Virus record (IMG/VR): IMGVR_UViG_3300017917_000400 | Coordinates: 40,076 to 104,075 of that record | Direction: 5' to 3' (one strand) | From: a virus | DNA: 64,000 nt | Part shown: positions 4,151 to 34,200 of the stretch, in pieces | Position numbering within the stretch: the stretch's first letter is position 1 | Layout: every line of letters starts with the position of its first letter | Position numbers and translations under genes: made by a program | The notes under the pieces: generated by a model | What the model saw: only the letters and a program-made list of their open reading frames with translations | Told to the model about the DNA's origin: nothing | Databases searched by the model: none

Positions 4151-4573
4151 TTATACTGCAATTAAAACTAATACGTCTGCTGACGAATCGTTATCTAAGT
4201 ACCACTTGTACTTGTTACCGCTGAAGTCATATGCAAGACGCTTAGTTAGTTTAGCAATAGCAATATCTCCAGGTGTTTGACCTGTTGTAGAACCAAGGAT
4301 GCGAATTTCTCCGTTGGCTGCTGGCTCGCCGGAAACTAGTTTACCTGTTTTTAAATTAGTACCAGTAATAGAACTAATGCTTTCTGCTTCTGTAAATGCA
4401 TCTGTAGAAGTCTTTAGAACAACGTATGTGCTTTTACCACGTTGCTTAACAATTTGATAGTCACTGGCTAGTGAGCCGCCAAAGTAACCTTGAACTACGA
4501 TGCCTGCTTGTGATGTTGTAAATGAACGGGTAACTTTAGTACCGTATACATCTTTCTTTAATGGACGTCCCAT
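4151..4573 (-). CDS. Probable capsid-associated/decoration protein (140 aa)
   Basis: Directly downstream of gp23 with its own late promoter and AAGGAG SD; function inferred from position. Confidence 0.5.
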   Translation of the reverse strand: MGRPLKKDVYGTKVTRSFTTSQAGIVVQGYFGGSLASDYQIVKQRGKSTYVVLKTSTDAFTEAESISSITGTNLKTGKLVSGEPAANGEIRILGSTTGQTPGDIAIAKLTKRLAYDFSGNKYKWYLDNDSSADVLVLIAV

Positions 4574-4664
4574 TTGTTTTCTCCTTATGTTGACGTTTTA
4601 GGTCTACGCAGAGGGATTCTGCATAAGTTCGCTACTGCGAATATAATTTAGACATTGTATTTAG
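4574..4664 (-). promoter_or_regulatory. Late promoter (CTAAATA, 4664-4658) plus structured 5' leader with alternative SD-sequestering pairing
   Basis: Hairpins UUCGC-AGUA-GCGAA and UAUGCAGA-AUCCC-UCUGCGUA; CUUAUG (4627-4622) complementary to CAUAAG (4589-4584), which overlaps the SD. Confidence 0.55.
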
Positions 4665-13567: not shown

Positions 13568-14434
13568 ATGGAAAACCAAGAACAACAAGGAATGAATCCT
13601 TTAAAGAAATATTTCAGACAACCAAAGATATATCTTAAATTACCTAGTAGCGGTAATTTTTATCCCAAGGGTTCAATTGAATTTACACAAAATATGGAAT
13701 TTCCTGTGTATGCCATGACTGCTAGAGATGAAATCGCAATTAAAACTCCAGATGCACTAATGAATGGTCAAAGCACAGTTGACGTTATACAAAGTTGCAT
13801 TCCAAATATTAAAAATGCTTGGATGATTCCAAGTATCGACATTGATGCTATTCTTATCGCTATCCGTATTGCTACCTACGGAGAGCAAATTGATCTTGAT
13901 ATCAGTATTCCAAATACCACTATAACTAAGACATATACCACAGATCTAAGATTGGCCTTAGATAAACTACTTACTGCTGTCTACGATTCAGAAATTAAAA
14001 TAAATGATGAATTAACTGCGTTTATACGCCCTATTAACTATGAAGAATTTACTAAAAATTCAATTAAAACCTTAGAGGAACAAAGAATATTCAGCATAGT
14101 TAACAGTCAAGAAATGTCAGAACACCAAAAAATTGAGCAGTTTAATAAAAGTTTTAAAATTTTAACAGAAATTAATGTTGGTTCTATTGTTAAAAGTATT
14201 GTTAAGATTGTTACTCCTGACGGAGAAGTAACAAATATTGATCATATTAATGAATTTGTCAACAATTCGGACACAGAGTTTTTTAACAAAGTCACAGATC
14301 ATTTAGAAAAACAACGTGACAAGTTTACAATGCCTATGTTTAAAATTGTTACTACTCAAGAAGAGCGCGAACAAGGCGCTCCAGACGAATTTGAAACACC
14401 AGTATCGTTGGATGCTTCAAATTTTTTCGCATAA
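13568..14434 (+). CDS. Baseplate hub/tail assembly chaperone (gp26-like), 288 aa
   Basis: NPLKKYFRQPKIYLKLPSSG, MTARDE, DIDAILIAIRIATYGE; ends ..SNFFA on a slippery run. Confidence 0.75.
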   Translation: MENQEQQGMNPLKKYFRQPKIYLKLPSSGNFYPKGSIEFTQNMEFPVYAMTARDEIAIKTPDALMNGQSTVDVIQSCIPNIKNAWMIPSIDIDAILIAIRIATYGEQIDLDISIPNTTITKTYTTDLRLALDKLLTAVYDSEIKINDELTAFIRPINYEEFTKNSIKTLEEQRIFSIVNSQEMSEHQKIEQFNKSFKILTEINVGSIVKSIVKIVTPDGEVTNIDHINEFVNNSDTEFFNKVTDHLEKQRDKFTMPMFKIVTTQEEREQGAPDEFETPVSLDASNFFA

Positions 14435-14484
14435 AGCTCTTCAACCTTAACCTCGAAGACGCACTGCGAGTCGTTGAAGGGCTT
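14419..14484 (+). promoter_or_regulatory. Putative -1 programmed ribosomal frameshift signal
   Basis: In-frame A_AAT_TTT (14419-14425) and T_TTT_TTC (14422-14428); 12-bp stem AAGCUCUUCAAC (14434-14445)/GUUGAAGGGCUU (14473-14484). Confidence 0.75.
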
Positions 14485-14658
14485 GATAAAGAAGTTAAAG
14501 CGATTCGTACAGATCTACTAAAAATTACCTGGTACATGAGAGGTGGTATCACATTAGATGATGCCTTTGCTCTTACAGTTGAAGATCGTGAGATCATATC
14601 AGAGATTATCAAAGATAATCTAGAAACTACTAAGAAATCAGGATTACCTTTCTTTTAA
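14428..14658 (+). CDS. gp51-like C-terminal extension in the -1 frame (76 aa; predicted fusion about 363 aa); not in ORF track
   Basis: Frame open 14395-14658: RIKLFNLNLEDALRVVEGLDKEVKAIRTDLLKITWYMRGGITLDDAFALTVEDREIISEIIKDNLETTKKSGLPFF*; only ATG (14536) is internal and lacks an SD. Confidence 0.7.
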   Translation, partial: RIKLFNLNLEDALRVVEGLDKEVKAIRTDLLKITWYMRGGITLDDAFALTVEDREIISEIIKDNLETTKKSGLPFF

Positions 14659-14659
14659 T

Positions 14660-15101
14660 ATTATAGATGAACTGCGTTCATCTGTTCTTCGCTATCGCTC
14701 GAACTATTTGTTTCTTTTTAATAATAGAGCATTATTAAGTGCGAAGCACTTTAGCATTATCCAGATTGTTCAGTCACACTTTGCCCGCACAGGGCAAAGA
14801 AATGAACATTATCCGAGTTGCACAATGTCACACAGCAGTAGAGCATTACAGTGGCGGTTGACCGGTACCACGAGCTCCGTCTTCATTCAACGGCGGCATA
14901 CATTAATCTGCTATCACTAGTGTATGCGTGAGGTTTTTCTCCTCTCTTTGGGCCTTTATTCTTTCAAACAGCAAAACTTGGGCAGTTTCAAGTCGTCGTC
15001 CTGTTAAGGATAGTTGCTGAGTACTCTTTACGGCGAGAGATTTCCGTCCCTGCGACCCGCGGTCCAGGTATAAGGGCGCATGAAGTTAGCCTGCGCGAGC
15101 T
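14660..15101 (-). ncRNA. Candidate large structured non-coding RNA downstream of GIY-YIG gene
   Basis: About 440 nt without a credible ORF, GC-richer than flanks, more than 12 helices, two pseudoknots; G-U pairs work on the minus strand only. Confidence 0.65.
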
Positions 15102-15545
15102 TTAACCGTTTGATTTGGCCTGTGCTTGCTCTTGAAGACGTTGCCTTAGAATGTTTGAGCCGCCTACTCTGACGTTAATGATACCATTATAGTAATCATC
15201 TGTTTCTAATACTCTGCGTTCAAACTGTTCTCTTGCCTCTAGATATGACATTTCTGCCTTGGACTTGCAATAATAAAGTATTTCTCTAGTGAATTTTTCT
15301 GGACCTAATGCTTGTACATCTGCATTTAATCTGTCAGAAGAACCCCAATAGTCGCGCCAATCGCTTTCTACGGTACTTCTTCTTTTAAGTTTACGGCCTT
15401 TGAGTGGTGGTTTAGTGCGTTTAAACTGTGCTAGTTTTTTGCCTATGTACTTTTGCCCGGTTGTAAGATTGGTTATAAGATAAACAAAACCTATATAACC
15501 TTCGGGAATTTCTTCGACTAAACTGTTTTGATAGTGCCATGACAT
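15102..15545 (-). CDS. Small stand-alone GIY-YIG endonuclease
   Basis: GFVYLITNLTTGQKYIGKK, SDWRDYWGSS, FTREIL, YLEAREQF, YYNG. Confidence 0.85.
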   Translation of the reverse strand: MSWHYQNSLVEEIPEGYIGFVYLITNLTTGQKYIGKKLAQFKRTKPPLKGRKLKRRSTVESDWRDYWGSSDRLNADVQALGPEKFTREILYYCKSKAEMSYLEAREQFERRVLETDDYYNGIINVRVGGSNILRQRLQEQAQAKSNG

Positions 15546-15579
15546 GCACTTATATACCGGTTAGTCACTGCCTGTGTCT

Positions 15580-15780
15580 TTAGTTTTGGTTTTTTTTACG
15601 TGAAGCCTGTATTTCCATTCGCCTTTTTTTACATAGATCTCTAATTGTTCTTAGATATTCTCTTGCCTGTACGCTAGATCCGTGATAGCCGTAACGTTCA
15701 TATCGTTCGTTCCAGCGAGAGTACTCAATAAACGCTTTAACTAAAGAGTCGTGAGTGTCGTCTTTGATATCATCAGTCAT
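15580..15780 (-). CDS. Small basic helical protein, possibly Hc1/histone-H1-like DNA-binding
   Basis: SSVQAREYLRTIRDLCKKRRMEIQ resembles the RARK.L..L.KL.K.RR.EIQ pattern. Confidence 0.4.
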   Translation of the reverse strand: MTDDIKDDTHDSLVKAFIEYSRWNERYERYGYHGSSVQAREYLRTIRDLCKKRRMEIQASRKKNQN

Positions 15781-17554
15781 AAACTTCTATATCGTTAGCG
15801 TAACTAGTGAACCCGTTTTCTTTTATTACCTTGAGCACGTTGTTCACTCGACCCACTAATTCATCCCTATGAGAAATTAGATAGATGTTCTTATTGCGTT
15901 CACGGCCCATCTTTTTCAAGATTCCTAAGGAGTTTTCAACTCCTGCGGCGTCCATGCCCGAATCAATAAGTTCATCTATGAATAAGAGATTGATGTTCTG
16001 GTATAACGACTCCCAGACATCGCGGAATGCCCAACTTAATCCTAAGATTAATCGATTCCTTTCTCCTCGTGACAGGTTATCAAAATCTAAGTCCTGCCCG
16101 AGTTGGGTTATTTCTACCGTTAGGTCATTTTGGAATACAACGGTGTGAGGTAGACCCACCTTATCAAGGTAATAAGTGAGACGATTATTCAAATAAGCAA
16201 GATTCTGATCAATAATCTTCTTACGAATAAACGAATCTTTGTTAGTTAACAGTTTTAATAAGAACTCTTGATGTTCCTTCATAGAATTTAAACTGTTAAC
16301 TGAATCCCAAGACACTTCTTGTAGAGCAGTATTTTCTAATTCAACAATCTGTTCTTGATAAGTGTCAACTTCGTCTTGTTTATTTTTTAATTGAACTGCA
16401 AGACTTTCTAAATTGCTTCGATGATTGTATGCTTCGTTTAAGGTGTCGTAGAACGTTGCGGGTCTGCCGTTGATATCTCCAATACTGTCTAATTCTTTGA
16501 CAATCAACTCTAGGTCCCCTGTGACTTTGGACAAGTATATATCTGCATCAACGAGATTTTTTTCTGCCGCTTTAATCATTTCTCCGTGCTTATGATCGTG
16601 CAATTCTTGTTCGCAGGCTGGACAAGTTTTATTTTCTAGTTGTTCAACTTCTTTACGATATTTTTTTACACTTTTATCTGCTTGCATCACAGCAGTTTCT
16701 AATGTTGCACGTTCTTTATTAAGACTTTTAATCTTTGCTGATTGCTCGTCATAAATTTTAACTAATTCATGTTGTGCAATTTCTTGATCAATGTCTACTT
16801 TAGCCAACTCGTCTATAGCACTTTGAATTTTTGCAATATCTACATCTTTATTTTTCTGCCACACAGATTGTTTTAATTTTAAACTGTTAATACTCTCTTG
16901 AATTTTATCGTTAGATTTTTTAACAGCATCAATTCTTGCACTTTCCTGTGTAATTTCGTCTTTGGTAATACGAATTTGTTCTTTAAGTTCCTCTGCCTTT
17001 TCGCTCAACAGAGTAATACCTAACAGTTGTTCAATAATAACACGTTGATCGTTAGATTTCATACTTAAAAAAGGTTCAGTATATGTGTTCAATGCTACAA
17101 CGTGTTTGAACATGTCGTGACTTAGCCCTAATAATTCGTCAATGTCTTTTTGTGTTTCGCGACTATCGCCTTGGCCTTCGTCGTCAACATCTGCGTTTTC
17201 CTGTTCTTGTTCGTCTACATAAAACTTTAGTACATTAGGTTTACGACCACGTTCAATTCTATACAGTCTTCCGTCTTTTTCAAACTCAACAGTGACTAAC
17301 ATGTTCTTATTGTTAATTTTATTAATAAGATTATCTTTTTTGATGTTAGTCAGTGCTTGTCCGTAAAGCGCATAACTTAATGCGTTTACAATAGTGGTCT
17401 TACCCGTGCCGTTTCGAGAGCCGGAATCGTCACCTCCTTGGTCCAAGTTCTCGCCTAAGACTAGGGTAAGTTGCTCTTTATTAAAATCTACTGCCTGCGT
17501 AGCATTACCTACGCTCATAAAATTTTTAACTGTTAGATCTTTTATTTTTATCAT
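15773..17554 (-). CDS. gp46: Recombination endonuclease ATPase subunit (gp46/Rad50/SbcC)
   Basis: Walker A NGTGKTT, zinc hook CPAC, signature LSRGE, Walker B LLFIDE, ISH. Confidence 0.95.
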   Translation of the reverse strand: MIKIKDLTVKNFMSVGNATQAVDFNKEQLTLVLGENLDQGGDDSGSRNGTGKTTIVNALSYALYGQALTNIKKDNLINKINNKNMLVTVEFEKDGRLYRIERGRKPNVLKFYVDEQEQENADVDDEGQGDSRETQKDIDELLGLSHDMFKHVVALNTYTEPFLSMKSNDQRVIIEQLLGITLLSEKAEELKEQIRITKDEITQESARIDAVKKSNDKIQESINSLKLKQSVWQKNKDVDIAKIQSAIDELAKVDIDQEIAQHELVKIYDEQSAKIKSLNKERATLETAVMQADKSVKKYRKEVEQLENKTCPACEQELHDHKHGEMIKAAEKNLVDADIYLSKVTGDLELIVKELDSIGDINGRPATFYDTLNEAYNHRSNLESLAVQLKNKQDEVDTYQEQIVELENTALQEVSWDSVNSLNSMKEHQEFLLKLLTNKDSFIRKKIIDQNLAYLNNRLTYYLDKVGLPHTVVFQNDLTVEITQLGQDLDFDNLSRGERNRLILGLSWAFRDVWESLYQNINLLFIDELIDSGMDAAGVENSLGILKKMGRERNKNIYLISHRDELVGRVNNVLKVIKENGFTSYANDIEVYD

Positions 17555-18555
17555 AGATTATTATAGATAGCCAACAGAACTTTAGGATCGTAACTGTCGC
17601 TTTGAATACTGGCAATTTGATTGCTAACAATTTGATCTACACTTTCAAACTGTTGCACGTCTAAGTTAGTGTTAATTTCTACATCTTTCTTTTCAGGTAT
17701 CAACGTAAGTTCTCTAATATTTTCTTGCGCCATATACGTTTCTTTAATAAAACTAGCCTCTTCAAAACTAATATCAATATCAATGCCTACTCGTAGATAT
17801 GTTTTAGGCAGTATTAGTTTTTCAGAATTATCAATCAACTCGCTGAGCTTTATAGTCTTAAATTTAGGAGCACCCTCCCATATTTTATAAACAGGAGTCT
17901 TGCCGTGTTCTAAAATCATCATACCCCTATCGTCATCCCACGCATCTGCGTAGTTGTGCGGAAAAGCATTTCCAATATAGACAATATTTTGTTTGGCCTG
18001 TCGCTTGTGAAAGTGTCCGCTGAATACATATTCGGGATTTTTAAAATGATGTGCTTGTAATTCTCCATGGTCTGGCATCTGCACCATAGCATTCATCATA
18101 AACAACGGAAGTTCAAAGTGTCCAAATATGTAACGACTCTTTAATTTCTCCATTTTTTTCCACTCGTCACCTACTAGCCACGGAACCATAGTAACATCAT
18201 CTATAGTAGTAATGTCGCTGACAATAGTGACACCCGGTATATGACGTCCCCAATCAACAGAATGTACATCACGTTTATCTTTGTAATATAAATCGTGATT
18301 ACCTGGGAAGAAATAAAACTGATCAAATGCTTTGCCTAATTTTTCTAAACTACGAATGCTACTAACCATAGTCAGCATATTTAGGCTGTTACGATTGTGA
18401 TGCCAGTCGCCTAGAAATATTCCAGTGTCACAACCTTCTTTTTTGGCTTCGGCAATAAACCAATCTACGAAATCCTCGCAGTCTTGATTGTGTACAGCAG
18501 AATTTGATTTTAGTCCAAAGTGTATATCTGTAAAACAGGCTATCTTTTTAAACAT
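17551..18555 (-). CDS. gp47: Recombination nuclease subunit (gp47/Mre11/SbcD)
   Basis: DIHFG, GDWHH, GNHD, GHFE, SGHFH metallophosphoesterase motifs. Confidence 0.95.
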   Translation of the reverse strand: MFKKIACFTDIHFGLKSNSAVHNQDCEDFVDWFIAEAKKEGCDTGIFLGDWHHNRNSLNMLTMVSSIRSLEKLGKAFDQFYFFPGNHDLYYKDKRDVHSVDWGRHIPGVTIVSDITTIDDVTMVPWLVGDEWKKMEKLKSRYIFGHFELPLFMMNAMVQMPDHGELQAHHFKNPEYVFSGHFHKRQAKQNIVYIGNAFPHNYADAWDDDRGMMILEHGKTPVYKIWEGAPKFKTIKLSELIDNSEKLILPKTYLRVGIDIDISFEEASFIKETYMAQENIRELTLIPEKKDVEINTNLDVQQFESVDQIVSNQIASIQSDSYDPKVLLAIYNNL

Positions 18556-24852: not shown

Positions 24853-27800
24853 ATGGCAAGTGTAGATAGACAAAATAAACTTATTGCGGCAGAAGACTGG
24901 AAAAAAGTATACCAGAGTTTTAAAAACGCAGACTTTAAATCGTACGACTTTGACAACCTTCGTCGTACAATGATCACGTATCTACGTGAAAATTATCCAG
25001 AAGATTTTAACGATTATATTGAGTCAAGTGAGTACTTGGCCCTTATTGATCTCATCGCATTTTTAGGTCAAAACCTAGCATTCCGCTTTGACTTAAATGC
25101 TCGTGATAACTTCCTTGAACTAGCAGAACGTCGTGAAAGCGTACTACGTTTAGCACGTCTATTAAGTTATAATCCTAAGCGTAATCAGCCAGCCAACGGA
25201 CTTTTAAAGTTTACCTCTATATCTACAACAGAAACTGTACTAGACAGTAATGGCAGAAATCTATCTAATCAAACTATTGTTTGGAATGACAGTGCAAATG
25301 CTAACTGGTACGAACAATTTATTAAAGTATTAAATGCATCTTTACCAGAAACTAGTCAATTTGGTAAACCGTTAGCCAGCGCAACAATCAGTGGTGTTCC
25401 TTGTGAACAATATAGATTTAATGCATCAAACACAGAAGTTCCAATTTACGGTTTTAGTAAAAACATCGACGGCCGCAACGTAGATTTTGAAGCAGTGTCA
25501 ACTACATTTTCTGGATCTGATTCAATTTATGAAGAAGCACCTTTTCCAACAAATAGTCTAGCGTTCTTATATAGAGACGACGGCGGCGGCCCACCAAGTA
25601 GCAACACAGGTTTCTTTGTTCACTTCCGTCAAGGAACATTACAAGAAAGCACATTTACAATTGATCGTCCTAGTACCAGCGAAACATTAGATATTGATAG
25701 TCCTAATATTAACAATTCTGATGTGTGGCTATACGGATTAGATAGTATTGGATTTGAAACAACACTGTGGACTAAAGTAGATGCTGTTGAAGGCAACAAT
25801 GTCATTTATAATAGTGTAAACAAAAATATTAGAAACATTTATAGTGTATTAACTCGATCGCTTGATCGTGTAAGATTAATTTTTGCAGACGGTACATTTG
25901 GTAATTTGCCTCAAGGCAACTTTAAAGTATATTATAGAATTAGCAATGGATTATCTTATTCTATCAATCCGGCGGACGTTAGAAATGTTTCTATTGATAT
26001 TCCTTACATTAGTAGATCTGGAAAAAAAGAAATTGTAACTATTGCACTAGGTTTAAAATATACAGTTACAAATGCTACAATCGCAGAAACAACTGATAGT
26101 ATTAAAACCAATGCACCTGCAACATACTACACACAAAGTCGTATGATTACAGGCGAGGATTACAACGTCTATCCTTTAAGTATCAACCAAGAGATTGTAA
26201 AAGTAAAATCAATCAATAGAATTAGCAGTGGTATCAGTCGATACTTTGACTTAAAAGACAGTTCAGGAAAATATAGCGCAACAAATTTATTTGGCACAGA
26301 CGGTGTTCTGTATAAAGAGCCAACAACAAATTCTTTTACATTTAGTGTAAGCACACGAACTGATATTGAAAACGTAGTTTTAAATCAAGTTATACCAATT
26401 TTATCTGATAGAAAAACTGTTGATTTTTACCTTGACAAATATCCTAAGATTATATTAGATCCAGTTTTCAGTTCTTTCTATCAGCAGACTAGTGCAGTAA
26501 ATCTTTCTACAGGTTATATAGGAGATGTAGATGATGCATCTACTAAAAAATTAGGAGCATTTACAAGTTCTAATTTACGATACATAGTTCCAGGGTGTTT
26601 GATAAAATTTACTCCCGAAGCGGGAAAAGTATTTGATAAAGATAATAATATTATTGATCTAGCAAATGCCGATGCAGACTCAAAAACTTATGTTTGGAGT
26701 AAAGTAATTAATGTTATTTCAGATGGCACAGCCTCAAATACTGGAGTACTTGCAGACGGAACTGGACCTGTAATCCTAAACGATATAATTCCAACTGGCG
26801 CTAATTTAAATTCAATATTACCTAAATTTGTTACTGGATTAGAATCTAGTGTTATTACAAGAATAGTAGATTTAATTTTTGCTAATAAAGAGTTTGGACT
26901 ACGCTACGATGCAAATCAAACCACATGGAAAATTATTTCAGACACAAACGTAGATAAGAAAAATGATTTTAGTTTAGGTAAAGCCGGCGATGTAAGCAAT
27001 CAACAATTAGATGCTAGTTGGATAATCTTGTTTGAAACCAACGGAGAAGTCTACACAGTTACTAGCAGAGGAACACGATACGTGTTTGAAAGTGAAAAAG
27101 AAATTAGATTCTTCTATGACAGCAGTGACAAAGTTTATGACACAAGCTCAGGAAAAATTATACGAGATAGTATTACAGTTTTAGGAATTAATACAGAGCC
27201 AGATACTACCAGTCCTATAGATCAAGATATCAAATGGGAAATTGTTGACGACTATAAAGGCGCCGACGGCTACATTGATTCAAAGAAAATTTCAATTAGT
27301 TTTTATGACAATGACGAAGACGGTGTTGTAGATAACCCAGAAATTTTTGATATCGTTGTTGCACCTAGTGTAAATCCAGCAGAAAAATTTATTTTTCAAA
27401 AGAGTAGAATTAGCATTGATGGCGTAACAGATTATTATTACATCAGTAATAACAACGACTTAATTAAAATTTATGCATCTCAAGGTGCAATAGATTCAAA
27501 TGTTTTAGCAGATCAGCAGTTAGTTTATATTATAGATGAAGATGTAGTTAAGGTATTCTACAAAGAAAGTGTAACCTTTGTTATTACAACAGAATATCGT
27601 GCCTTTGTAGGAAGAGATTTATTAAAATTTCAATACGTACACGCCGCAGACGAAAGTGCAAGAATTGATCCTGCCGCAACTAATATCATTGATGTCTTTA
27701 TGTTAACTAAGTCTTATGATGCTCAATACAGACTATGGTTAAGCGGTGAACTGGCAACTAGACCGTTGCCTCCAAGCAGTGATGCATTGTATATTAATTT

Positions 27801-28284
27801 TAATAGCAGTCTGGGAAAAATTAAAGCGATCAGTGATGAAATCATTTATCATCCTGTAAAATATAAAAATTTATTTGGATCAAAAGCAGACATGAGTTTA
27901 CAAGCAACATTTAAAGTTGTAAAGAATACATCGCTAGTTATCAGCGATAACGATATTAAAACTGGCGTAGTAAATGCAACTAAAGAATTTTTCGCTATTG
28001 AAAACTGGGACTTCGGGGATACGTTTTATTTTGGTGAACTAGCAACATATATTATGACCAAGATGAGTCCTAAGATTGCAAATATTGTTTTAGTACCAAA
28101 TAATCAAAATTTAGCATTTGGTAGTTTATACGAAATCAAATCTAATCCTGATGAGATTTTTGCTACTTCAATTTCTGTAGATAACGTTGAAATTATATCA
28201 GAAATAACTGCGGCAAGATTAAACACTACAGGAGTAGTTTTAACATCTAGCTCAATGTCAGCCAACGGTGTGGTTAGTAATTAA
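24853..28284 (+). CDS. gp6: Baseplate wedge protein (gp6-like), extended to 1143 aa
   Basis: YDFDNLRRTMITYLRENYPEDFNDY, AERRESVLRLARLLSYNPKR, FADGTFGNLP, QSRMITGEDY. Confidence 0.88.
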   Translation: MASVDRQNKLIAAEDWKKVYQSFKNADFKSYDFDNLRRTMITYLRENYPEDFNDYIESSEYLALIDLIAFLGQNLAFRFDLNARDNFLELAERRESVLRLARLLSYNPKRNQPANGLLKFTSISTTETVLDSNGRNLSNQTIVWNDSANANWYEQFIKVLNASLPETSQFGKPLASATISGVPCEQYRFNASNTEVPIYGFSKNIDGRNVDFEAVSTTFSGSDSIYEEAPFPTNSLAFLYRDDGGGPPSSNTGFFVHFRQGTLQESTFTIDRPSTSETLDIDSPNINNSDVWLYGLDSIGFETTLWTKVDAVEGNNVIYNSVNKNIRNIYSVLTRSLDRVRLIFADGTFGNLPQGNFKVYYRISNGLSYSINPADVRNVSIDIPYISRSGKKEIVTIALGLKYTVTNATIAETTDSIKTNAPATYYTQSRMITGEDYNVYPLSINQEIVKVKSINRISSGISRYFDLKDSSGKYSATNLFGTDGVLYKEPTTNSFTFSVSTRTDIENVVLNQVIPILSDRKTVDFYLDKYPKIILDPVFSSFYQQTSAVNLSTGYIGDVDDASTKKLGAFTSSNLRYIVPGCLIKFTPEAGKVFDKDNNIIDLANADADSKTYVWSKVINVISDGTASNTGVLADGTGPVILNDIIPTGANLNSILPKFVTGLESSVITRIVDLIFANKEFGLRYDANQTTWKIISDTNVDKKNDFSLGKAGDVSNQQLDASWIILFETNGEVYTVTSRGTRYVFESEKEIRFFYDSSDKVYDTSSGKIIRDSITVLGINTEPDTTSPIDQDIKWEIVDDYKGADGYIDSKKISISFYDNDEDGVVDNPEIFDIVVAPSVNPAEKFIFQKSRISIDGVTDYYYISNNNDLIKIYASQGAIDSNVLADQQLVYIIDEDVVKVFYKESVTFVITTEYRAFVGRDLLKFQYVHAADESARIDPAATNIIDVFMLTKSYDAQYRLWLSGELATRPLPPSSDALYINFNSSLGKIKAISDEIIYHPVKYKNLFGSKADMSLQATFKVVKNTSLVISDNDIKTGVVNATKEFFAIENWDFGDTFYFGELATYIMTKMSPKIANIVLVPNNQNLAFGSLYEIKSNPDEIFATSISVDNVEIISEITAARLNTTGVVLTSSSMSANGVVSN

Positions 28285-28294
28285 AGGATAATAC

Positions 28295-31200
28295 ATGGCA
28301 TTCTCTAAAGATCAAAAAGAACCAAGTCTTCCAACTAGTAGCACAGACACTACTAGAAGTGCGGTTAATTTTTTACCTAGATATTTTAGAACTAGTACTA
28401 ACCAAAAATTCTTAAATGGTACATTAGATCAATTAATTTCTGTAGGCAATGTTGATAAGATCAATGCTTACATTGGCAGAAAAACAAACAAAGCCTATTC
28501 ACCTACTGACAACTATGTAGAAGAAATTTCACTAGAAAGATCTGCCTACCAATTAGAGCCAGCAATTTTAGTCAAAGATTCTTTAGATAATGTAACGTTT
28601 TTTAGCGACTATAACGATTATATTAATCAATTAAAATACTTTAATTCTTCAACAACTGATCACAATAAGATTAACAGTCAAGAGTCCTACTCATGGGATC
28701 CTCATATTGATTGGGATAAGTTCATCAATTACAGAGAATACTATTGGCTTCCAAAAGGTCCGCAAGTAATTGCAATTAAAGGCCAAAGCAAAAACATAAT
28801 CAGTACCTATACAGTAACATTAATTAACGATGTAGACAATATTGCATATTTGTTTACACCAGATGGCCTTACAAGAAATCCTTCAATTAAGTTGTACAGA
28901 GGACAAACTTATAAGTTTGAAATTAATTGTCCAGGAAGACCAATTGCATTTAAAACTGTTAGAGATTTAGATAATGCCTTTATATACGACGACGGCGTTA
29001 CTAGCGATACACCATATGTTGAGGATGGTACAATTACATTCACTATTCCCGACAATGCTCCTGATGTCTTGTATTATGTCAGTCAAAATGACATTAACAC
29101 ATCTGGCTTCTTTAAAATTTATGACATTGAAGAAAATACATTTATTGATGTAGAAAAAGAAATATTAGGTAAAAAGACTTATAATATTGATGGGACATTA
29201 GAACTTTCAAACGGTATGAAAGTTAATTTTATTGGAAACGTTACACCTGAAAAGTATTCAACAGACAATTGGTATGTAGAGGGAGTAGGTGACAAAATAC
29301 GATTAGTAGCAGAAGACTCTCTTCAAACCCCGTTAAGTTTTACATTAGATAAAGATATTGAATTTGACACAGAAAACTTTGATACGCAAGGTTTTGATGT
29401 TAATAACAATTATCCAGATAAAAAAGATTATATTACAATCAATAGATCTAGCAGAGATGGCAACCACTGGAGTAGATATAACAGATGGTTCCATAAATCT
29501 GTTATTGAAACGTCGGCAAATTATAATGATCAGCCTATAGACATTGATCAAACAGCAAGAGCTAAACGACCAATCATTGAATTTAAGCCAGATATCCAAC
29601 TATGGAATTTTGGTACCGAAGCCAAAAAAAGTGTTGACCTAGTTGATTTGTTTACTAAAGATATTTTTTCAACCATTGAAGGAAGTCTAGGATATACTAT
29701 TGACGGTGTATTTTTATTAGAGGGAATGCGAGTTTTATTTGCAGTTGATACCGATACGACCGTTAATGGAAGAATTTTTAAAATTGGATTTGTTACACAC
29801 CTGGGTGTAAAACGAATAACTCTGTTAGAAGAAGATGACACTGATCCAATAGACGGACAATCTGTATTAATCAAGGATGGAGATAATTTTAAAGGAAAGA
29901 TGTTCCATTACTCTAGCGGAGCATGGACAGAAAGCCAAGATAAAACTAACGTTAATGTGCCCCCGTTATTCGATGTTGTTGATGTAAATTCTGTTAGTTA
30001 TGGTGACAGAACAACTTATATTGGTTCTTCGTTTATAGGAACTAAGTTATTCAGTTATCAAGAAGGTGATACTTATGATAACGAATTAGGTTTAAACATT
30101 TCTTATAGCAACATTGGAAATATTGGCGATATACTTTTTGACTTTAATTTGCAAAAAGATTCTTTTACCTTTCAAGGTGAAGTTGAGTTAATTGAAAGAA
30201 ATTTAGACAAGGGTTACTTAAAAATAAATGACAGTATCTCTTCTAGCAGAAGACTAAACGGTTGGATCAAAACAGAATTCCTAACAAGACAGCCAATTAT
30301 TCGACAATATAATGTTACTGCTAATTTACTAAATTTATTTCCTATTGATGTTTACAAGAAAAGCGGAACGCTTGATGATTTAGAAATTAAAGTTTTTGTA
30401 AACAATAAGAAAAGATCTGATTACGAAGTCTACAGACAAAACAGCGTAGCATATATTCAATTTATAACCGACCTTTCAGTTAATGATGTATTAATCATCG
30501 AAACTATTTCTTCAGCAGAAAAAGTAAGCACTGAAGGTTATTACAAATTTCCAAGTAATTTAGAAAGTAATCCTCAAAATTTAAGTTTATACAATTTAAC
30601 ATTAGGACAAATTTCTAATCACGTTAAAACTATAGTTGATAATGTTTCATCTTTTGAGGGGTCCTTACCTGGCACAAGTAATTTAAGAGACCTTGGCGAT
30701 GTTTCAGGATATGGAACACAAGTGGTGCAACACTCTGGACCACTGGCACCAATCATTTATTCTTTTACAAATAAAAATGTAAACATAGTTAAAAGTTTAA
30801 GATATGCTCAAGATGAGTATTCTAAATTTAAAAGAAACTTAATTAGAACCGCAACCACATATGGCTACGACGGTATTACTAGAACACACTTAGATCTAAT
30901 CCTTAAGGAAGTGACTAAGGATACTACAATAGAAGCACCGTTTTATTTGAGCGATATGGTTCCGTTTGGAATTAATTTTGTCTACGAACAAGAAATTATA
31001 GATGATTCGTTTACTGATTATCCGTTAACATTTGATTTTAATCTAGACGAAGCCAGCTCAAAAGCAGTATTAGTCTATGTCAACGACGAACTACTATTGC
31101 ACGGTCGAGATTACATTTTTATAAACACTAGTTTTATAAAAATTCTATCTACAATTCAAACAGGCGACAATTTAAAAATAATACAATACGAGGAAACAGC

Positions 31201-34200
31201 CGGATGCTGTGTCCCGCCAACTCCTACTAAGTTGGGATTATATCCACTGTTTGAACCAAAAATATTTGTTGATAACACCTATCAAGTGCCTACTAAAGTA
31301 ATTCAAGGGCATGATGGTAGTATTACAGTTGCTTTCTCAAATCCAGGTGAACCAGACGAATTTAGAGATCAATTGTTGTTAGAATTAGAAATGAGAATTT
31401 ATAACAACATTAAGATTCGTTATGATGCCGAATTGTTTAATCTTGACAGTATGATTCCTGGTTATTTTAGAAATGCAGATATTTCTTTATCAGAATTAAA
31501 TTCTACTCTAAGACAAGAATTCTTAAATTGGACTGGCTTGATCAATGAAGATTACACAAAACATACATTCCTTGATCGAAACAATCCATTTACCTTTAAT
31601 TATAAATCTTTTGTTGATCCATCTGGAGAACAGTTATTAGGTTTTTGGAGAGGTATCTACAAATATTTTTACGACACCGACCGTCCTCACACACATCCGT
31701 GGGAGATGTTAGGATTTAGCATCAAACCAACATGGTGGGAAACAACTTACGGGCCTGCACCTTATACTAAAGATAATTTATTACTATGGAATGATTTAGC
31801 GGAAGGAACTATCAGAATTCCGGGAGAGTTTCCTAGAAAAAATAATCTATATGCTAGAGCAGACCTATTAAAATTTATTCCTGTTGACGGTGAAGGACAA
31901 TTAATTGATCCTTTAGAAACAGGTTTAGTTTCTGAATTTATTTCAGTCTTTACAGAAAAAGAATTTACCTTCGGTGATCATGCACCTATTGAAACTGCAT
32001 GGAGACGTAGTAGCCACTATCCGTTTGCTCTTATCACAACACTAACATTATTGCGACCAGCAAAGATGTTTGCACTTGGATTTGACAGAATTCGTCAATA
32101 CAGAGACGAAACAGGACAAATTGTCTATAAAACTCCAACAGGAAATTCTCGATTTAATCTAAGCAATTTAATATTTCCAAGTACAGTTAAAGACTCAACA
32201 AGAGTTTTTGCCAGCGGTCTAGTTAATTATTTGATTAGTTATGCCGTAAGCAAGTCCTTTACTATTGTTGATAATTTTAAATCTGATCTAAGTTCATTGC
32301 AGATTAAAATATCTAGTAAACTTGCTGGATTTACAACTAAAGAAAAATTTAAATTAATTTTAGATAGTCGTAGTCCGTTAAATCAAGGAAATGTTTTCAT
32401 TCCTCAAGAAAACTACGATATAATCTTAAATTCAAGTACACCTGTGACTACTATCAGTTATAGCGGTGTCATTATTGAAAAGTCTGCCAGCGGATTTATT
32501 CTCAAAGGTTATAATAAGACTATTTCAGAATTTAAGTATAATAAGCCCGTAGAAACAGTATCTGATCCAATTATTAGCGTTGGCGGAATATCAGAAACAT
32601 ACACTGAATGGCAGTCGTCAAAATATTATGCTAAAGGGTTAATAGTTAAGATCGATCAAAACTATTTTAGAGTTACAACCGGCCATACAAGTACCACAGC
32701 ATTTGAATCTAAGTATTTTGCCAAGTTACCGTCATTGCCTGTAATAGGCGGCCGAGAAATAATTTTAAGAAGAAATTTTGAATCTGAAATTAGTTCGTTG
32801 CACTATGGTGCGGAATTAAGAACAGTACAAGAAGTTGTAGACTTTTTGCTAGGTTATGGAAAGTATCTTACCGATGCAGGATTTGTTTTTGAATATTTTA
32901 ATCCAGCACTTAAAACAGTTACTGACTGGCAGACCAGTGCAAAAGAATTTACATTCTGGACCACACAAAATTGGGCAGAAGGCTCAGTTATTTCATTGAG
33001 TCCATCTGCTGAAGAATTAATTTACAATAAAGAATATTCTATTGTTGACAGCATATATGATCCATTCTATGAATATTCAATATTCAAACAAGATGGTGTT
33101 GAACTAGAACCTTCATTTACAAACTCTATCAGAGAAAATAATAATTTTAGCCTAAGACCAAAAAATACCGCAGACGGGTTGTATCATGCTACATTAAATC
33201 TTGTGCAAAAAGAGCATGTTTTAATTTTAGATGACGTAACAATCTTTAATGATATCATCTATGATCAAATACAGGGATACAGACAAGATAGAATAAAAGT
33301 AGTTGGTTATAAAATCAGCGACTGGACCGGCAATTTTAATATTCCAGGATTTGTTTATGACCGTGCAATAGTAACCGAGTGGAAACCATGGAAAGACTAT
33401 GCGCTTGGCGAAACTATAAAATATAAAGAATTTTATTATAGTGCTAGAAAAAATGTTTCTGGTGCAGAAACATTTGATGACAACGAATGGTATAAACTTT
33501 CTGATCGACCTGAGAGTAAATTAATTCCTAACTGGGATTATAGAGCAACACAGTTTGAAGATTTTTATGACCTAGATACAGACAGTTTTGACGTTGATCA
33601 GCAAAAATTTGCACAGCATTTGATCGGATATCAAAAGCGTCAATACCTTGAAAATATTATCAACGATGACGTAAGTCAGTATAAGTTTTATCAAGGTATG
33701 ATTCAGGAAAAGGGTACACAGAATAGCCTTTCAAAATTATTTGACGCATTGAATTCTGCTGATCAAGACAGTTTAGAATTCTTTGAAGAGTGGGCAATAC
33801 GTTTGGGTCAATACGGAGCCAGCGGAGGATTTGAGGAAGTTGAATACGTTCTTAACGAAGAAAAGTTCTTAATTAACCCACAGCCAATTGAACTAGTTAA
33901 TCAAATTCCGTTTGGCGTAAACGATTTTGTATATCGTATAACTCCAGATCAAGTATATTTAAAACCCGATGATTATTTACATGCTCCATTCCCAACTGTG
34001 TCATCACAGAACGAGTATATTAGAACAGCCGGTTATGTAAATTATGAAGATGTTGATTATATAATTTCTTCAAAGGACGAATTTGCAGATTATAATATCA
34101 AAGATCTAGTTGAAGGACAATATTTCTGGTTAGGATTTGACAGGAGTTCATGGAACGTTTATCGATTTACTAATTTTGCTAAATCAATTAAACGTGTTGA

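What the first reader, a model, noticed from the sequence alone, without database searches (positions are those of the whole stretch)
14660..15545. GIY-YIG nuclease followed immediately by a ~440-nt pseudoknotted RNA: candidate nuclease-RNA system
Seen: in a genome with almost no intergenic space, 440 nt of ORF-free, GC-richer sequence begins right at the GIY-YIG stop. Minus-strand helices in order: GCGCA/UGCGC (15096-15076); CCUG-GACC/GGUC-G-CAGG (15068-15049); H-type pseudoknot ACGG/CCGU + CUCU/AGAG (15047-15024); three-way junction CAGCAA/UUGCUG with UCCU/AGGA and ACUUG/CAAGU (15019-14969); GAGG/CCUC; GCAUACA/UGUAUGC whose loop AUAGCAG (14914-14908) pairs long-range with CUGCUGU (14838-14832); CCGU/ACGG; nested GAGC-GUGG-CGG helix; long arm CGGAU-UGUUCA-CUUUGCCC/GGGCAAAG-UGAACA-AUCUG (14815-14762). 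G-U pairs favour the minus strand. The nuclease seems to have its own leaderless late-type promoter, so ORF and RNA would be one transcript. I could not match it to tmRNA, RNase P or intron cores. Inference: a ribonucleoprotein (RNA-guided or RNA-regulated nuclease, by analogy to TnpB/IscB omega RNAs), a ribozyme, or a large ornate phage RNA. The protein appears to lack the extra DNA-binding domain of homing endonucleases and has a basic insert (KRTKPPLKGRKLKRR) that could bind RNA.
Basis: partly seen in the sequence, partly recalled or inferred. Interest (0 to 1): 0.88.

Follow-up and report, generated by a model that had tools for sequence, protein, structure and literature searches.

The report
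Twin-box phage RNA beside nuclease gene
The gene-free stretch behind a small nuclease gene of this uncultured T4-like water phage encodes a real, multiply knotted RNA of about 440 bases. Its first third is the catalogued but unexplained Polynucleobacter-1 motif, and it looks like a self-standing RNA gene of unknown function, not a guide for the nuclease.

Summary
The 442-nt gap after the GIY-YIG ORF (14660-15101, minus strand) is a real structured RNA. Its first 136 nt match Rfam RF01718 (Polynucleobacter-1) full length at 108 bits. The other ~300 nt are uncatalogued.

In 38 non-redundant homologues, 113 proposed pairs are 91.7% paired and 67 show compensatory changes (0/500 shuffles). They include three covariation-supported pseudoknots. 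Its outer 'long arm', its CCGU/ACGG helix and its late promoter do not.

A nuclease-RNA partnership is not supported:
- The locus is syntenic (gp47, gp46, small ORF, nuclease, RNA) in uncultured T4-like aquatic phages.
- Of ~202 RNA loci, 185 have the GIY-YIG gene, 5 have a PD-(D/E)XK nuclease in its slot, 8 have an extra gene in between, and at least one has none.
- The same GIY-YIG family sits in 539 cultured phage records; none of seven checked has the RNA.
- Identical nucleases accompany RNAs only 77% identical.
- No guide-like segment exists.

The RNA carries two single-stranded 7-nt boxes 52 nt apart. They are identical in 118 of 121 homologues although the word varies. I found no reader. 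This scan found the same 'twin-box' RNA before on other DNA.

Best reading: a self-standing phage ncRNA beside a Seg-like endonuclease gene, as T4 segB lies beside tRNA genes.

The parts
14660..15101 (-). Full-length structured RNA (~440 nt), 'extended Polynucleobacter-1 / twin-box RNA'
   Evidence: Nucleotides are conserved 60-88% over the whole length in homologues whose GIY-YIG is only 53-60% identical. In the covariation test, 113 pairs are 91.7% paired and 67 have two-sided changes, 0/500 shuffles.
14966..15101 (-). 5' domain D1 = Rfam RF01718 Polynucleobacter-1. It holds P1 15096-92/15080-76, P2 15067-61/15057-50, P3 15039-36/15027-24, and the three-way junction P4 15019-14/14974-69, P5 15010-07/15002-14999 and P6 14994-89/14980-75.
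   Evidence: cmscan gives 108.4 bits (gathering score 37), model positions 1-141 of 141. P1, P4 and P6 have 3-5 covarying pairs each.
15089..15100 (-). Pseudoknot PK0: 5' tail GC (15100-15099) with the P1 loop GC (15090-15089)
   Evidence: MI pair 15100-15089 is GC 88 / AU 15. Helix 1 is 98.7% paired.
14896..14944 (-). Hairpins H7 (14944-41/14933-30) and H8+H8b (14927-16/14907-14896). The H8b loop holds one strand of PK1.
   Evidence: Pairs with two-sided changes: 4/4, 7/7 and 5/5 (helices 9-11).
14832..14914 (-). Long-range pseudoknot PK1: 14914-14908 with 14838-14832
   Evidence: 6 of 7 pairs have two-sided changes and 99.6% are paired (helix 12).
14841..14890 (-). H10 (14877-74/14844-41), H11 (14871-62/14857-51) and pseudoknot PK2 (14890-87 with hairpin loop 14861-58)
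   Evidence: H10 covaries at 4/4 pairs. PK2 pair 14889-14859 is UA 66 / CG 41, and 14888-14860 is GC 78 / AU 22.
14805..14832 (-). Repeat unit 1: UGUGAC (14832-27) ... box B1 with the 7-nt word GGAUAAU (14814-14808)
   Evidence: It co-varies by identity with unit 2 at a constant offset of 52 nt.
14779..14799 (-). Hairpin H12 between the two boxes
   Evidence: 8 pairs, 94% paired, 3 with two-sided changes (helix 19).
14753..14778 (-). Repeat unit 2: UGUGAC (14778-73) ... box B2 with the same word GGAUAAU (14762-14756)
   Evidence: 14814/14762 is GG 64, AA 56, with no discordant pair. 14813/14761 is GG 105, CC 13. 14810/14758 is AA 89, GG 31. The word is identical in both boxes in 118 of 121 homologues.
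14665..14749 (-). 3' hairpins: H13 with a UUCG-type loop (14749-39), H14/H14b (14704-14684, inner GNRA-type hairpin 14698-91) and the terminal hairpin H15 (14683-14665)
   Evidence: H13, H14b and H15 covary (helices 20, 22, 23). H15 is followed only by a short A/U tail and was not called a terminator by the scan tool.
15102..15545 (-). GIY-YIG endonuclease gene, 147 aa, single domain plus a C-terminal helix
   Evidence: Pfam PF19835, E 3e-35. Invariant G19, Y22, Y33, G35, E103, N120 in 37 homologues. The fold matches I-TevI, PD-T4-3 and UvrC GIY-YIG domains at Z 8.6-5.6.
15580..18555 (-). Upstream genes of the same strand: conserved small ORF (15580-15780, 66 aa, no family), gp46-like (15773-17554) and gp47-like (17551-18555)
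   Evidence: The same gene order is seen in nearly all related loci.
13568..14658 (+). Convergent genes that end the unit: baseplate protein (13568-14434, PF12322) and a 40-aa ORF (14536-14658)

Best explanation
The region encodes a self-standing, ~440-nt, multiply pseudoknotted non-coding RNA on the minus strand. It is the full-length form of the orphan Rfam motif Polynucleobacter-1.

How it is made: it is the last element of the gp47 - gp46 - small ORF - nuclease transcription unit of a clade of uncultured T4-like (Kyanoviridae-like) aquatic myophages. It starts at the nuclease stop codon and ends in a conserved hairpin. That it is made by read-through or processing of that transcript is inferred, not shown.

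The nuclease: the GIY-YIG gene is a neighbour, not a partner. It is a Seg-like free-standing endonuclease gene parked beside a conserved stable-RNA gene, as T4 segB lies among the T4 tRNA genes.

How it acts: the RNA folds into three domains. Between helices it presents two single-stranded copies of one 7-nt word. I infer that these twin boxes are its business end. They would dock by base pairing on two copies, or two sites, of a nucleic-acid partner that carries the matching word and is encoded elsewhere, so that word and partner change together. The partner and the biological role are not identified.
For: A real RNA:
- RF01718 matches at 108 bits over its full length.
- The whole 440 nt is conserved more strongly than the neighbouring protein.
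- 67 of 113 pairs have compensatory changes; the covariation score is 0.336 against 0.146 shuffled and 0.05-0.08 slid.
- MI recovers the helices and pseudoknots independently.

Independent of the nuclease:
- The synteny is fixed.
- Upstream ORF typing of ~202 RNA loci gives 185 GIY-YIG, 5 PDDEXK_15 (PF24608) in the same slot, about 8 with a 260-360-aa accessory ORF between nuclease and RNA, and L212 behind an amidoligase-like gene with no nuclease or gp46.
- The same small GIY-YIG family is in 539 cultured phage records, beside tRNA-Arg, RNR, thyA, recA or ferrochelatase genes. The seven homologue loci examined have no RNA match.
- L119 and L122 share 2.7 kb of identical DNA, including 100% identical GIY-YIG. 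They diverge to 50-70% from RNA position +138 and have different words.
- Pairwise identity of GIY-YIG and RNA domains correlates weakly (rho 0.17-0.33).

Twin boxes under selection:
- 118 of 121 homologues have the same word in both boxes, across 9 different words.
- L011 and L013 are 97% identical in the RNA but differ A/G in both boxes.
- Fixed differences right beside the boxes (8th letter G versus A; CUC versus UCU) argue against simple gene conversion.

Precedent: T4 SegB homing endonuclease lies in the tRNA gene cluster (Brok-Volchanskaya 2008, PMC2330249, cited in PMC10055350). Nuclease genes sit at boundaries of genetic exchange (PMC10055350).
Against: - Expression, ends and processing are therefore inferred.
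- A nuclease gene of one fold or another precedes the RNA in almost every locus, and no 'empty' gp46-RNA junction was seen. That also fits a functional link, or non-orthologous replacement within a system.
- The GIY-YIG ORFs are intact and conserved rather than sporadic or decaying, which is unlike a typical selfish homing gene.
- No partner for the boxes was found within +/-6 kb or in the 104-kb record. The base-pairing-partner idea is unproven.
- The terminal hairpin lacks a canonical U-run.
Confidence: 0.6

Rival explanations
1. Nuclease-RNA system. The RNA binds the GIY-YIG protein, which lacks a DNA-binding domain, and guides, regulates or scaffolds it. Here the twin boxes would act as the targeting word, by analogy with TnpB/IscB omega RNAs.
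For: - Adjacency is seen in 185 of ~202 loci, and another nuclease fold (PDDEXK_15) sits in the same slot in 5.
- The RNA begins at the stop codon.
- The protein is a single catalytic domain without a separate DNA-binding domain.
- The box word varies between phages like a specificity determinant.
Against: - The same protein family (35-67% identity) is found in 539 cultured phage records, and none of the seven homologue loci checked has the RNA.
- Accessory ORFs can separate the gene and the RNA, and L212 has the RNA without a nuclease.
- 100% identical nucleases go with different words and 77%-identical RNAs.
- There is no hypervariable constant-length guide and there are no transposon ends. 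The locus is syntenic, not mobile.
- A 7-nt word is too short to aim a DNA nuclease uniquely.
Confidence: 0.08
2. Cis-acting element of the operon: a large 3' UTR or leader. It would stabilise or process the gp47-gp46-nuclease mRNA. Alternatively it would control the variable genes that follow it on the same strand in most relatives.
For: - It is contiguous with the upstream ORF; in some relatives the ORF even runs 67 nt into the RNA.
- In most loci a same-strand ORF starts right after the terminal hairpin.
- Weinberg 2010 scored the motif as possibly cis-regulatory.
Against: - The downstream gene is absent in this window and in L011, L013 and L014, and it belongs to many unrelated clusters elsewhere, with no link to the word.
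- The upstream gene can also be swapped.
- 440 nt with three covariation-supported pseudoknots and invariant single-stranded stretches is far more than known stabilisers need.
Confidence: 0.12
3. A new ribozyme, for example self-processing or acting at the two identical boxes as twin substrate sites of one active site. It would excise or rejoin the 52-nt hairpin segment.
For: - The size, the pseudoknots and the many invariant unpaired nucleotides resemble large ribozymes.
- Two identical words flanking a hairpin would suit one guide or active site reading both.
Against: - No Rfam ribozyme or intron model matches, even at E up to 10.
- No internal guide complementary to the word exists or covaries.
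- No homologue lacking exactly the 52-nt unit was seen.
Confidence: 0.08
4. A DNA-level feature. The twin boxes would be paired recombination or endonuclease sites that must share an identical core, as the overlap regions of site-specific recombination sites must. The RNA gene would merely be the conserved landing zone.
For: - Identity in direct repeats whose sequence is free to vary is what recombination cores show (established knowledge for tyrosine recombinases).
- A recombination breakpoint lies in the RNA in L119/L122 and one lies just after box B2 in the L016/L094 groups.
Against: - No inverted binding arms flank the words.
- 52 bp is too short for excision between the sites.
- No recombinase gene is nearby.
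- Only a handful of breakpoints were found, with no clear hot spot.
- The surrounding helices covary as RNA.
Confidence: 0.05

Closest known systems
Polynucleobacter-1 RNA motif (Rfam RF01718; Weinberg et al. 2010, Genome Biol 11:R31, PMC2864571)
   Same: Window 14966-15101(-) matches the whole 141-position model at 108 bits. As the 2010 supplement noted, it lies downstream of a conserved phage-like gene (family GOS11034, like P-SSM2 locus 218) and is found in fresh-water and estuary samples. Its function is unknown.
   Different: The catalogued motif is only the first third. The conserved, covarying RNA runs ~300 nt further (domains D2 and D3, pseudoknots PK1 and PK2, twin boxes, terminal hairpin). 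In the one library paper that names the motif, the upstream gene is not called a GIY-YIG nuclease and the carriers are not called T4-like phages.
T4 segB (GIY-YIG homing endonuclease) inside the T4 tRNA / stable-RNA gene cluster (Brok-Volchanskaya et al. 2008, PMC2330249)
   Same: A small Seg-type GIY-YIG gene lies directly beside stable-RNA genes in a T4-like phage. Cyanophage homologues of this very protein sit 200 nt upstream of tRNA-Arg (S-RIM8, P-RSM1).
   Different: Here the RNA is one 440-nt orphan RNA, not tRNAs. The nuclease has no DNA-binding domain. It is nearly fixed at the locus rather than sporadic, and homing was not shown.
OMEGA systems: TnpB/IscB with omega RNA (HEARO RNA)
   Same: A nuclease ORF is contiguous with a large structured RNA on the same strand.
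   Different: A different nuclease fold, no transposon ends, no 3' or 5' guide segment, the RNA and nuclease are separable and do not co-evolve, and the protein family mostly occurs without the RNA.
Large 'ornate' RNAs of unknown function found by comparative genomics (GOLLD, ROOL, OLE, raiA)
   Same: Several hundred nucleotides, many covarying helices and pseudoknots, phage association (GOLLD, ROOL), no known function.
   Different: No sequence or model similarity. It is smaller, and the identity-covarying twin boxes have no counterpart that I know of in those RNAs.
T4 gene 60 translational bypass (matched take-off and landing codons around a ~50-nt gap)
   Same: Two identical words ~50 nt apart flank a hairpin. 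Letters 4-6 of each word always read as a stop codon (UAA or UGA) after a sense triplet.
   Different: No conserved ORF runs into the first box (median 7 open codons, ATG in 27 of 121). A stop also follows the second box. So the resemblance is formal only.

Membership tests
Rfam RF01718 Polynucleobacter-1 RNA | Covariance-model score at or above the curated gathering score (37 bits) over the full model | tested here: met
   108.4 bits, E 1.5e-22, model positions 1-141 of 141 at 14966-15101(-).
Rfam RF01718 Polynucleobacter-1 RNA | Consensus helices kept by compensatory change in homologues | tested here: met
   P1 has 3 of 5, P4 has 4 of 6 and P6 has 5 of 6 pairs with two-sided changes. P2 is invariant.
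Rfam RF01718 Polynucleobacter-1 RNA | Location downstream of the GOS11034 / P-SSM2_218-like gene family (Weinberg 2010 supplement) | tested here: inconclusive
   A conserved GIY-YIG gene lies upstream (53 of 54 pattern-found loci), and homologues abound in cyanomyophages. Identity with GOS11034 itself could not be checked.
GIY-YIG nuclease superfamily (Pfam PF19835 SegE_GIY-YIG) | Profile match above the curated cut-off | tested here: met
   121.5 bits against a cut-off of 25, profile positions 1-123 of 123.
GIY-YIG nuclease superfamily (Pfam PF19835 SegE_GIY-YIG) | Conserved GIY and YIG tyrosines, catalytic Glu and metal-binding Asn | tested here: met
   Y22, Y33/G35, E103 and N120 are invariant in 37 homologues of 55-93% identity. 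Assigning them to the catalytic roles rests on knowledge of I-TevI.
GIY-YIG nuclease superfamily (Pfam PF19835 SegE_GIY-YIG) | GIY-YIG alpha/beta fold | tested here: met
   AF2 model with pLDDT 89.6. The top 7 structural matches are all GIY-YIG domains: I-TevI Z 8.6 (rmsd 2.6, 82 aligned), PD-T4-3 Z 7.3, UvrC Z 6.1. The next match has Z 3.8.
Free-standing homing endonuclease (Seg type) | Catalytic domain joined to a separate DNA-binding domain | tested here: not met
   147 aa: one domain (residues 1-126) plus one C-terminal helix.
Free-standing homing endonuclease (Seg type) | Sporadic presence or absence between related genomes, varied insertion contexts | tested here: inconclusive
   It is nearly fixed at this locus (185 of ~202, with no empty site). 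The family sits in varied contexts in cultured phages, and another nuclease fold can occupy the slot.
Free-standing homing endonuclease (Seg type) | Cleaves the nuclease-free allele and drives its own inheritance | not testable with these tools
   This needs cleavage and co-infection assays.
RNA-guided nuclease systems (TnpB/IscB-omega RNA type) | Nuclease and RNA obligately linked and co-evolving | tested here: not met
   Found in 539 cultured phage records, with no RNA at any of the seven homologue loci checked. The RNA occurs with PDDEXK, with intervening genes, or with no nuclease. Identical protein goes with 77%-identical RNA; rho is 0.17-0.33.
RNA-guided nuclease systems (TnpB/IscB-omega RNA type) | A variable guide segment of fixed length at one end of a conserved scaffold | tested here: not met
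   Both ends are conserved structure (PK0/P1 and hairpin H15). The variable stretches are A-rich linkers of varying length. The only 'word' is 7 nt with few alleles.
Known ribozymes and introns (group I/II, hammerhead, twister, RNase P, tmRNA and others in Rfam 15) | Covariance-model match | tested here: not met
   cmscan of 14300-15900 at E up to 10 lists only RF01718 plus chance-level hits. There are no tRNA or tmRNA genes.
Intrinsic terminator | G+C-rich hairpin followed by a U-run | tested here: inconclusive
   Hairpin H15 is conserved and covaries (6 of 8 pairs). The tail is AUAAUAUU, and the scan tool did not call it a terminator.

The most novel reading that the evidence does not exclude
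The twin boxes are a programmable 7-nt specificity word. On this reading the RNA is a trans-acting effector, RNA-only or working with a nuclease encoded next to it. It docks twice on a matching nucleic acid encoded elsewhere in the phage, or in a competing phage. That would give phages of one 'word' a way to recognise self or exclude relatives: a new class of base-pairing phage RNA.
Probability: 0.12. Interest if true: 0.85.

Novelty: new variant of a known kind. Interest (0 to 1): 0.6.

Why it matters
Polynucleobacter-1 has been an orphan entry in Rfam since 2010. This locus shows four things:
- The catalogued 141 nt are only the head of a ~440-nt RNA with three covariation-supported pseudoknots.
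- Its carriers are a large clade of uncultured T4-like phages of lakes and seas.
- The gene it follows is a GIY-YIG nuclease.
- It holds two copies of a 7-nt word that are kept identical while the word itself changes.

That last pattern is not ordinary base-pair covariation. It points to an unknown reader. It gives RNA biologists a concrete, testable handle (swap one box or both) on a large phage RNA of unknown function.

The result also warns against reading every nuclease-plus-structured-RNA neighbourhood as a guide-RNA system.

Tried and rejected
1. RNA-guided or RNP reading: rejected as the main explanation (see the rivals).
2. Mobile cassette: rejected. The flanks are syntenic in all loci but one.
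3. Group I intron, ribozymes, tRNA, tmRNA: no model match.
4. Hidden small ORF or translational bypass at the boxes: no conserved frame or start.
5. Third copy or complement of the word near the locus: none within +/-6 kb.
   - The 10-mer copies in three late genes of the window are NYPE/NYPD-type codons.
   - The complement in gp46 'LTYYLDK' varies freely with synonymous codons.
6. Internal guide for the word: no segment pairs better with its own word than with shuffled words, and no MI partner exists.
7. GIY-YIG or the upstream small ORF as word-specific reader: identical proteins go with different words.
8. Link between the word and the downstream gene type: none.
9. Gene conversion as the cause of box identity: unlikely, because fixed differences lie right next to the boxes.
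10. Recombination hot spot in the RNA: only about 5 independent breakpoints, so no conclusion.
12. Host assignment: the strict RNA pattern hit no reference genome. The loose one hit only MAG contigs, one of them binned as Polynucleobacter.
14. Single-sequence folding energy: z is only -1.77, so it is not used as evidence.
Full report
**What is there.**
- The window is part of a 104-kb IMG/VR virus record, estimated 28% complete.
- On the minus strand lie gp47-like (17551-18555), gp46-like (15773-17554), a conserved 66-aa ORF (15580-15780) and a 147-aa ORF (15102-15545).
- After that come 442 nt without a conserved ORF, down to the convergent plus-strand genes: a 40-aa ORF at 14536-14658 and a baseplate protein at 13568-14434.
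- The gap is GC-richer than its flanks, 0.40-0.47 against 0.30-0.38.
- There are no tRNA or tmRNA genes in the window or in the whole record.

**The protein.**
- The 147-aa ORF matches Pfam PF19835 (SegE_GIY-YIG) end to end, E 3e-35.
- In 37 homologues of 55-93% identity, G19, Y22, Y33, G35, E103 and N120 are invariant.
- An AlphaFold2 model (pLDDT 89.6) aligns best to the catalytic domain of I-TevI (Z 8.6, rmsd 2.6 A, 82 residues). Next come the GIY-YIG domains of PD-T4-3 and UvrC, with a gap to Z 3.8 for unrelated chains.
- The 'basic insert' is a beta-hairpin that belongs to the family profile. It is not an insertion peculiar to this protein.
- The supposed leaderless late promoter (TATATAAG) is found in only 4 of 165 distinct homologous upstream sequences.

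**The RNA is real and partly known.**
- cmscan finds a full-length match to RF01718, Polynucleobacter-1 RNA, at 14966-15101(-): 108.4 bits against a gathering score of 37.
- The rest (14660-14965) matches nothing in Rfam 15, even at E up to 10.
- I collected homologues in three independent ways:
  - by the protein (80 loci);
  - by a strict pattern of the RNA 5' core (54 loci);
  - by a pattern of a 3'-domain hairpin (120 stretches, about 17 of them chance hits).
- The whole 440 nt is conserved at 60-88% identity to the window, even where the nuclease is only 53-60% identical.

**Covariation.** I tested a hand-built structure on an alignment of 38 sequences, all less than 93% identical to each other (A1).
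- 113 pairs form 23 helices and are 91.7% paired, against 81.1% after shuffling.
- 67 pairs have changes on both sides, against 42 after shuffling.
- The covariation score is 0.336, against 0.146 shuffled and 0.05-0.08 when partners are slid. No shuffle of 500 reached the observed values.
- Mutual information on 121 distinct sequences recovers the same helices.
- G-U pairs fit only the minus strand.
- The single-sequence folding energy is unremarkable (z -1.77). The case rests on comparison.

**Is it a nuclease-RNA system?**
- The association is striking at first sight. 53 of the 54 loci found by the RNA pattern alone have a GIY-YIG homologue (42-93% identical) directly upstream, and the 54th is cut by the contig end.
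- But the locus is not a mobile cassette. The order gp47, gp46, small ORF, nuclease, RNA, (variable genes), convergent baseplate genes is the same nearly everywhere. The linkage can therefore be simple vertical inheritance in one phage clade.
- Typing the ORF upstream of the RNA in about 202 loci with enough sequence gives:
  - 185 GIY-YIG;
  - 5 with a non-homologous PD-(D/E)XK nuclease (PF24608) in the same slot;
  - about 8 with an extra 260-360-aa gene, methyltransferase-like or unknown, between the GIY-YIG gene and the RNA;
  - one divergent RNA (L212) behind an amidoligase-like gene, with neither nuclease nor gp46.
- Conversely, tblastn finds this small GIY-YIG family, widely mislabelled 'NAD synthetase', in 539 cultured phage records. 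There it sits beside tRNA-Arg (S-RIM8, P-RSM1), RNR genes, thyA, recA or ferrochelatase.
- None of the seven cultured-phage homologue loci I examined has the RNA.
- L119 and L122 share 2.7 kb of identical DNA, including 100% identical nuclease and upstream ORF. They fall to 50-70% identity from RNA position +138 and carry different box words.
- Pairwise identities of the nuclease gene and the RNA domains correlate weakly (rho 0.17-0.33). That is no better than gp46 with the RNA.
- Both RNA ends are conserved structure, and no hypervariable fixed-length segment exists.
- I therefore read the nuclease as a neighbour. Known parallels are T4 segB, a GIY-YIG homing endonuclease inside the tRNA gene cluster (PMC2330249), and nuclease genes at boundaries of genetic exchange (PMC10055350).
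- Against a plain selfish-gene reading, the gene is intact and nearly fixed here, and no empty site was seen. A functional tie cannot be excluded; I give it about 8%.

**The twin boxes.**
- Two junction strands repeat each other at a constant offset of 52 nt. One lies between PK1 and hairpin H12, the other between H12 and the UUCG hairpin.
- Each has UGUGAC, a 7-9-nt linker, then a 7-nt word. In the window the word is GGAUAAU, at 14814-14808 and 14762-14756.
- The two copies co-vary by identity, not complementarity:
  - 14814/14762: GG 64, AA 56, none discordant;
  - 14813/14761: GG 105, CC 13;
  - 14810/14758: AA 89, GG 31;
  - 14808/14756: UU 110, AA 8.
- 118 of 121 homologues have the same word in both boxes, across 9 words (AGAUAAU 43, GGAUAAU 31, GGAUGAU 13, GCAUAAU 13 and others). 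The divergent L212 has AGUUGAA twice.
- L011 and L013 are 97% identical in the RNA yet differ in both boxes.
- Fixed differences directly beside the words (8th letter G versus A) argue against gene conversion.
- The hunt for a reader found nothing:
  - no cis partner by MI or by a word-specific pairing scan;
  - no third copy or complement within +/-6 kb;
  - apparent matches in gp46 and in three late genes are codon coincidences;
  - identical nuclease and small-ORF proteins go with different words;
  - no link to the type of downstream gene.
- Letters 4-6 of the word are always UAA or UGA, and the layout recalls the take-off and landing sites of T4 gene 60. But no conserved ORF enters the first box, so bypassing is rejected.
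- The boxes remain unexplained. I infer a base-pairing partner encoded elsewhere.

**Earlier work.**
- The 2010 supplement already said that most Polynucleobacter-1 RNAs lie downstream of gene family GOS11034, with possible homology to P-SSM2 locus 218, and that none was found in a purified phage.
- Only that paper in the library names the motif.
- This scan has met the same RNA at least ten times on other genomes and reached the same picture: extended Polynucleobacter-1, twin boxes, unknown reader, not a guide.
- My analysis was done before I read those notes, and it agrees.
- It adds the PD-(D/E)XK replacement, the identical-nuclease/different-RNA pair, the tRNA-Arg neighbourhood of cyanophage homologues, and the rejection of bypassing.

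**Verdict.** The window holds a genuine, complex phage RNA of unknown function. Its head is a known orphan motif and the rest is undescribed. The observation largely stands. The nuclease-guide interpretation does not.

Noticed in passing
window 4571-4642 (-): A match to Rfam RF02980 freshwater-2 RNA: 53.8 bits, gathering score 49.9.
   Followed up: no
window 28295-42379 (+): A single open reading frame of 4694 aa. It is flanked by ORFs of 1143 aa (24853-28284) and 769 aa (43021-45330), presumably giant structural or fibre genes.
   Followed up: no
L175:3963-4484 (+); L232:8819-9385 (+): In a few related phages a PD-(D/E)XK endonuclease (Pfam PF24608 PDDEXK_15) occupies exactly the slot of the GIY-YIG gene, between the small ORF and the RNA.
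   Followed up: partly
related loci, e.g. L094, L101, L107, L123 (ORF starting ~430-480 nt after the nuclease stop): The variable genes that follow the RNA belong to many unrelated clusters but begin alike, with MK(I/V)(Y/T)EI(I/V). This recalls, from my own knowledge, the capsid-targeting sequence of T4 internal proteins. The window itself lacks such a gene.
   Followed up: no
L119 / L122, RNA position +138 (equivalent to window ~14965): A sharp recombination breakpoint: 2.7 kb of ~100% identical DNA up to the end of RNA domain 1, then 50-70% identity.
   Followed up: partly
L007 versus L024: L007 is a natural deletion variant of the RNA. It lacks positions +56 to +180 (P3-P6 and the linker) in an otherwise 99.9% identical locus.
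   Followed up: no
window 15580-15780 (-): A conserved basic 66-aa ORF between gp46 and the nuclease gene. It is present in nearly all related loci (65-100 aa) and has no Pfam or PHROG family.
   Followed up: partly
L008, L009, L010, L027, L029, L036, L042, L053 and others: Many metagenomic contigs end inside or just after the nuclease gene or RNA. This suggests that assemblies break at the hypervariable region downstream.
   Followed up: no
L260:3409-3609 and L263:1864-2063: In cyanophages S-RIM8 and P-RSM1 the homologous GIY-YIG gene is followed by a ~200-nt unannotated gap and then tRNA-Arg. The gap did not match the RNA profiles.
   Followed up: partly
window 14362-14386 (+): A partial, sub-threshold match to Rfam Ocean-VII (20 bits, gathering score 53.5, E 0.006) inside the end of the baseplate gene. 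It is probably chance.
   Followed up: no
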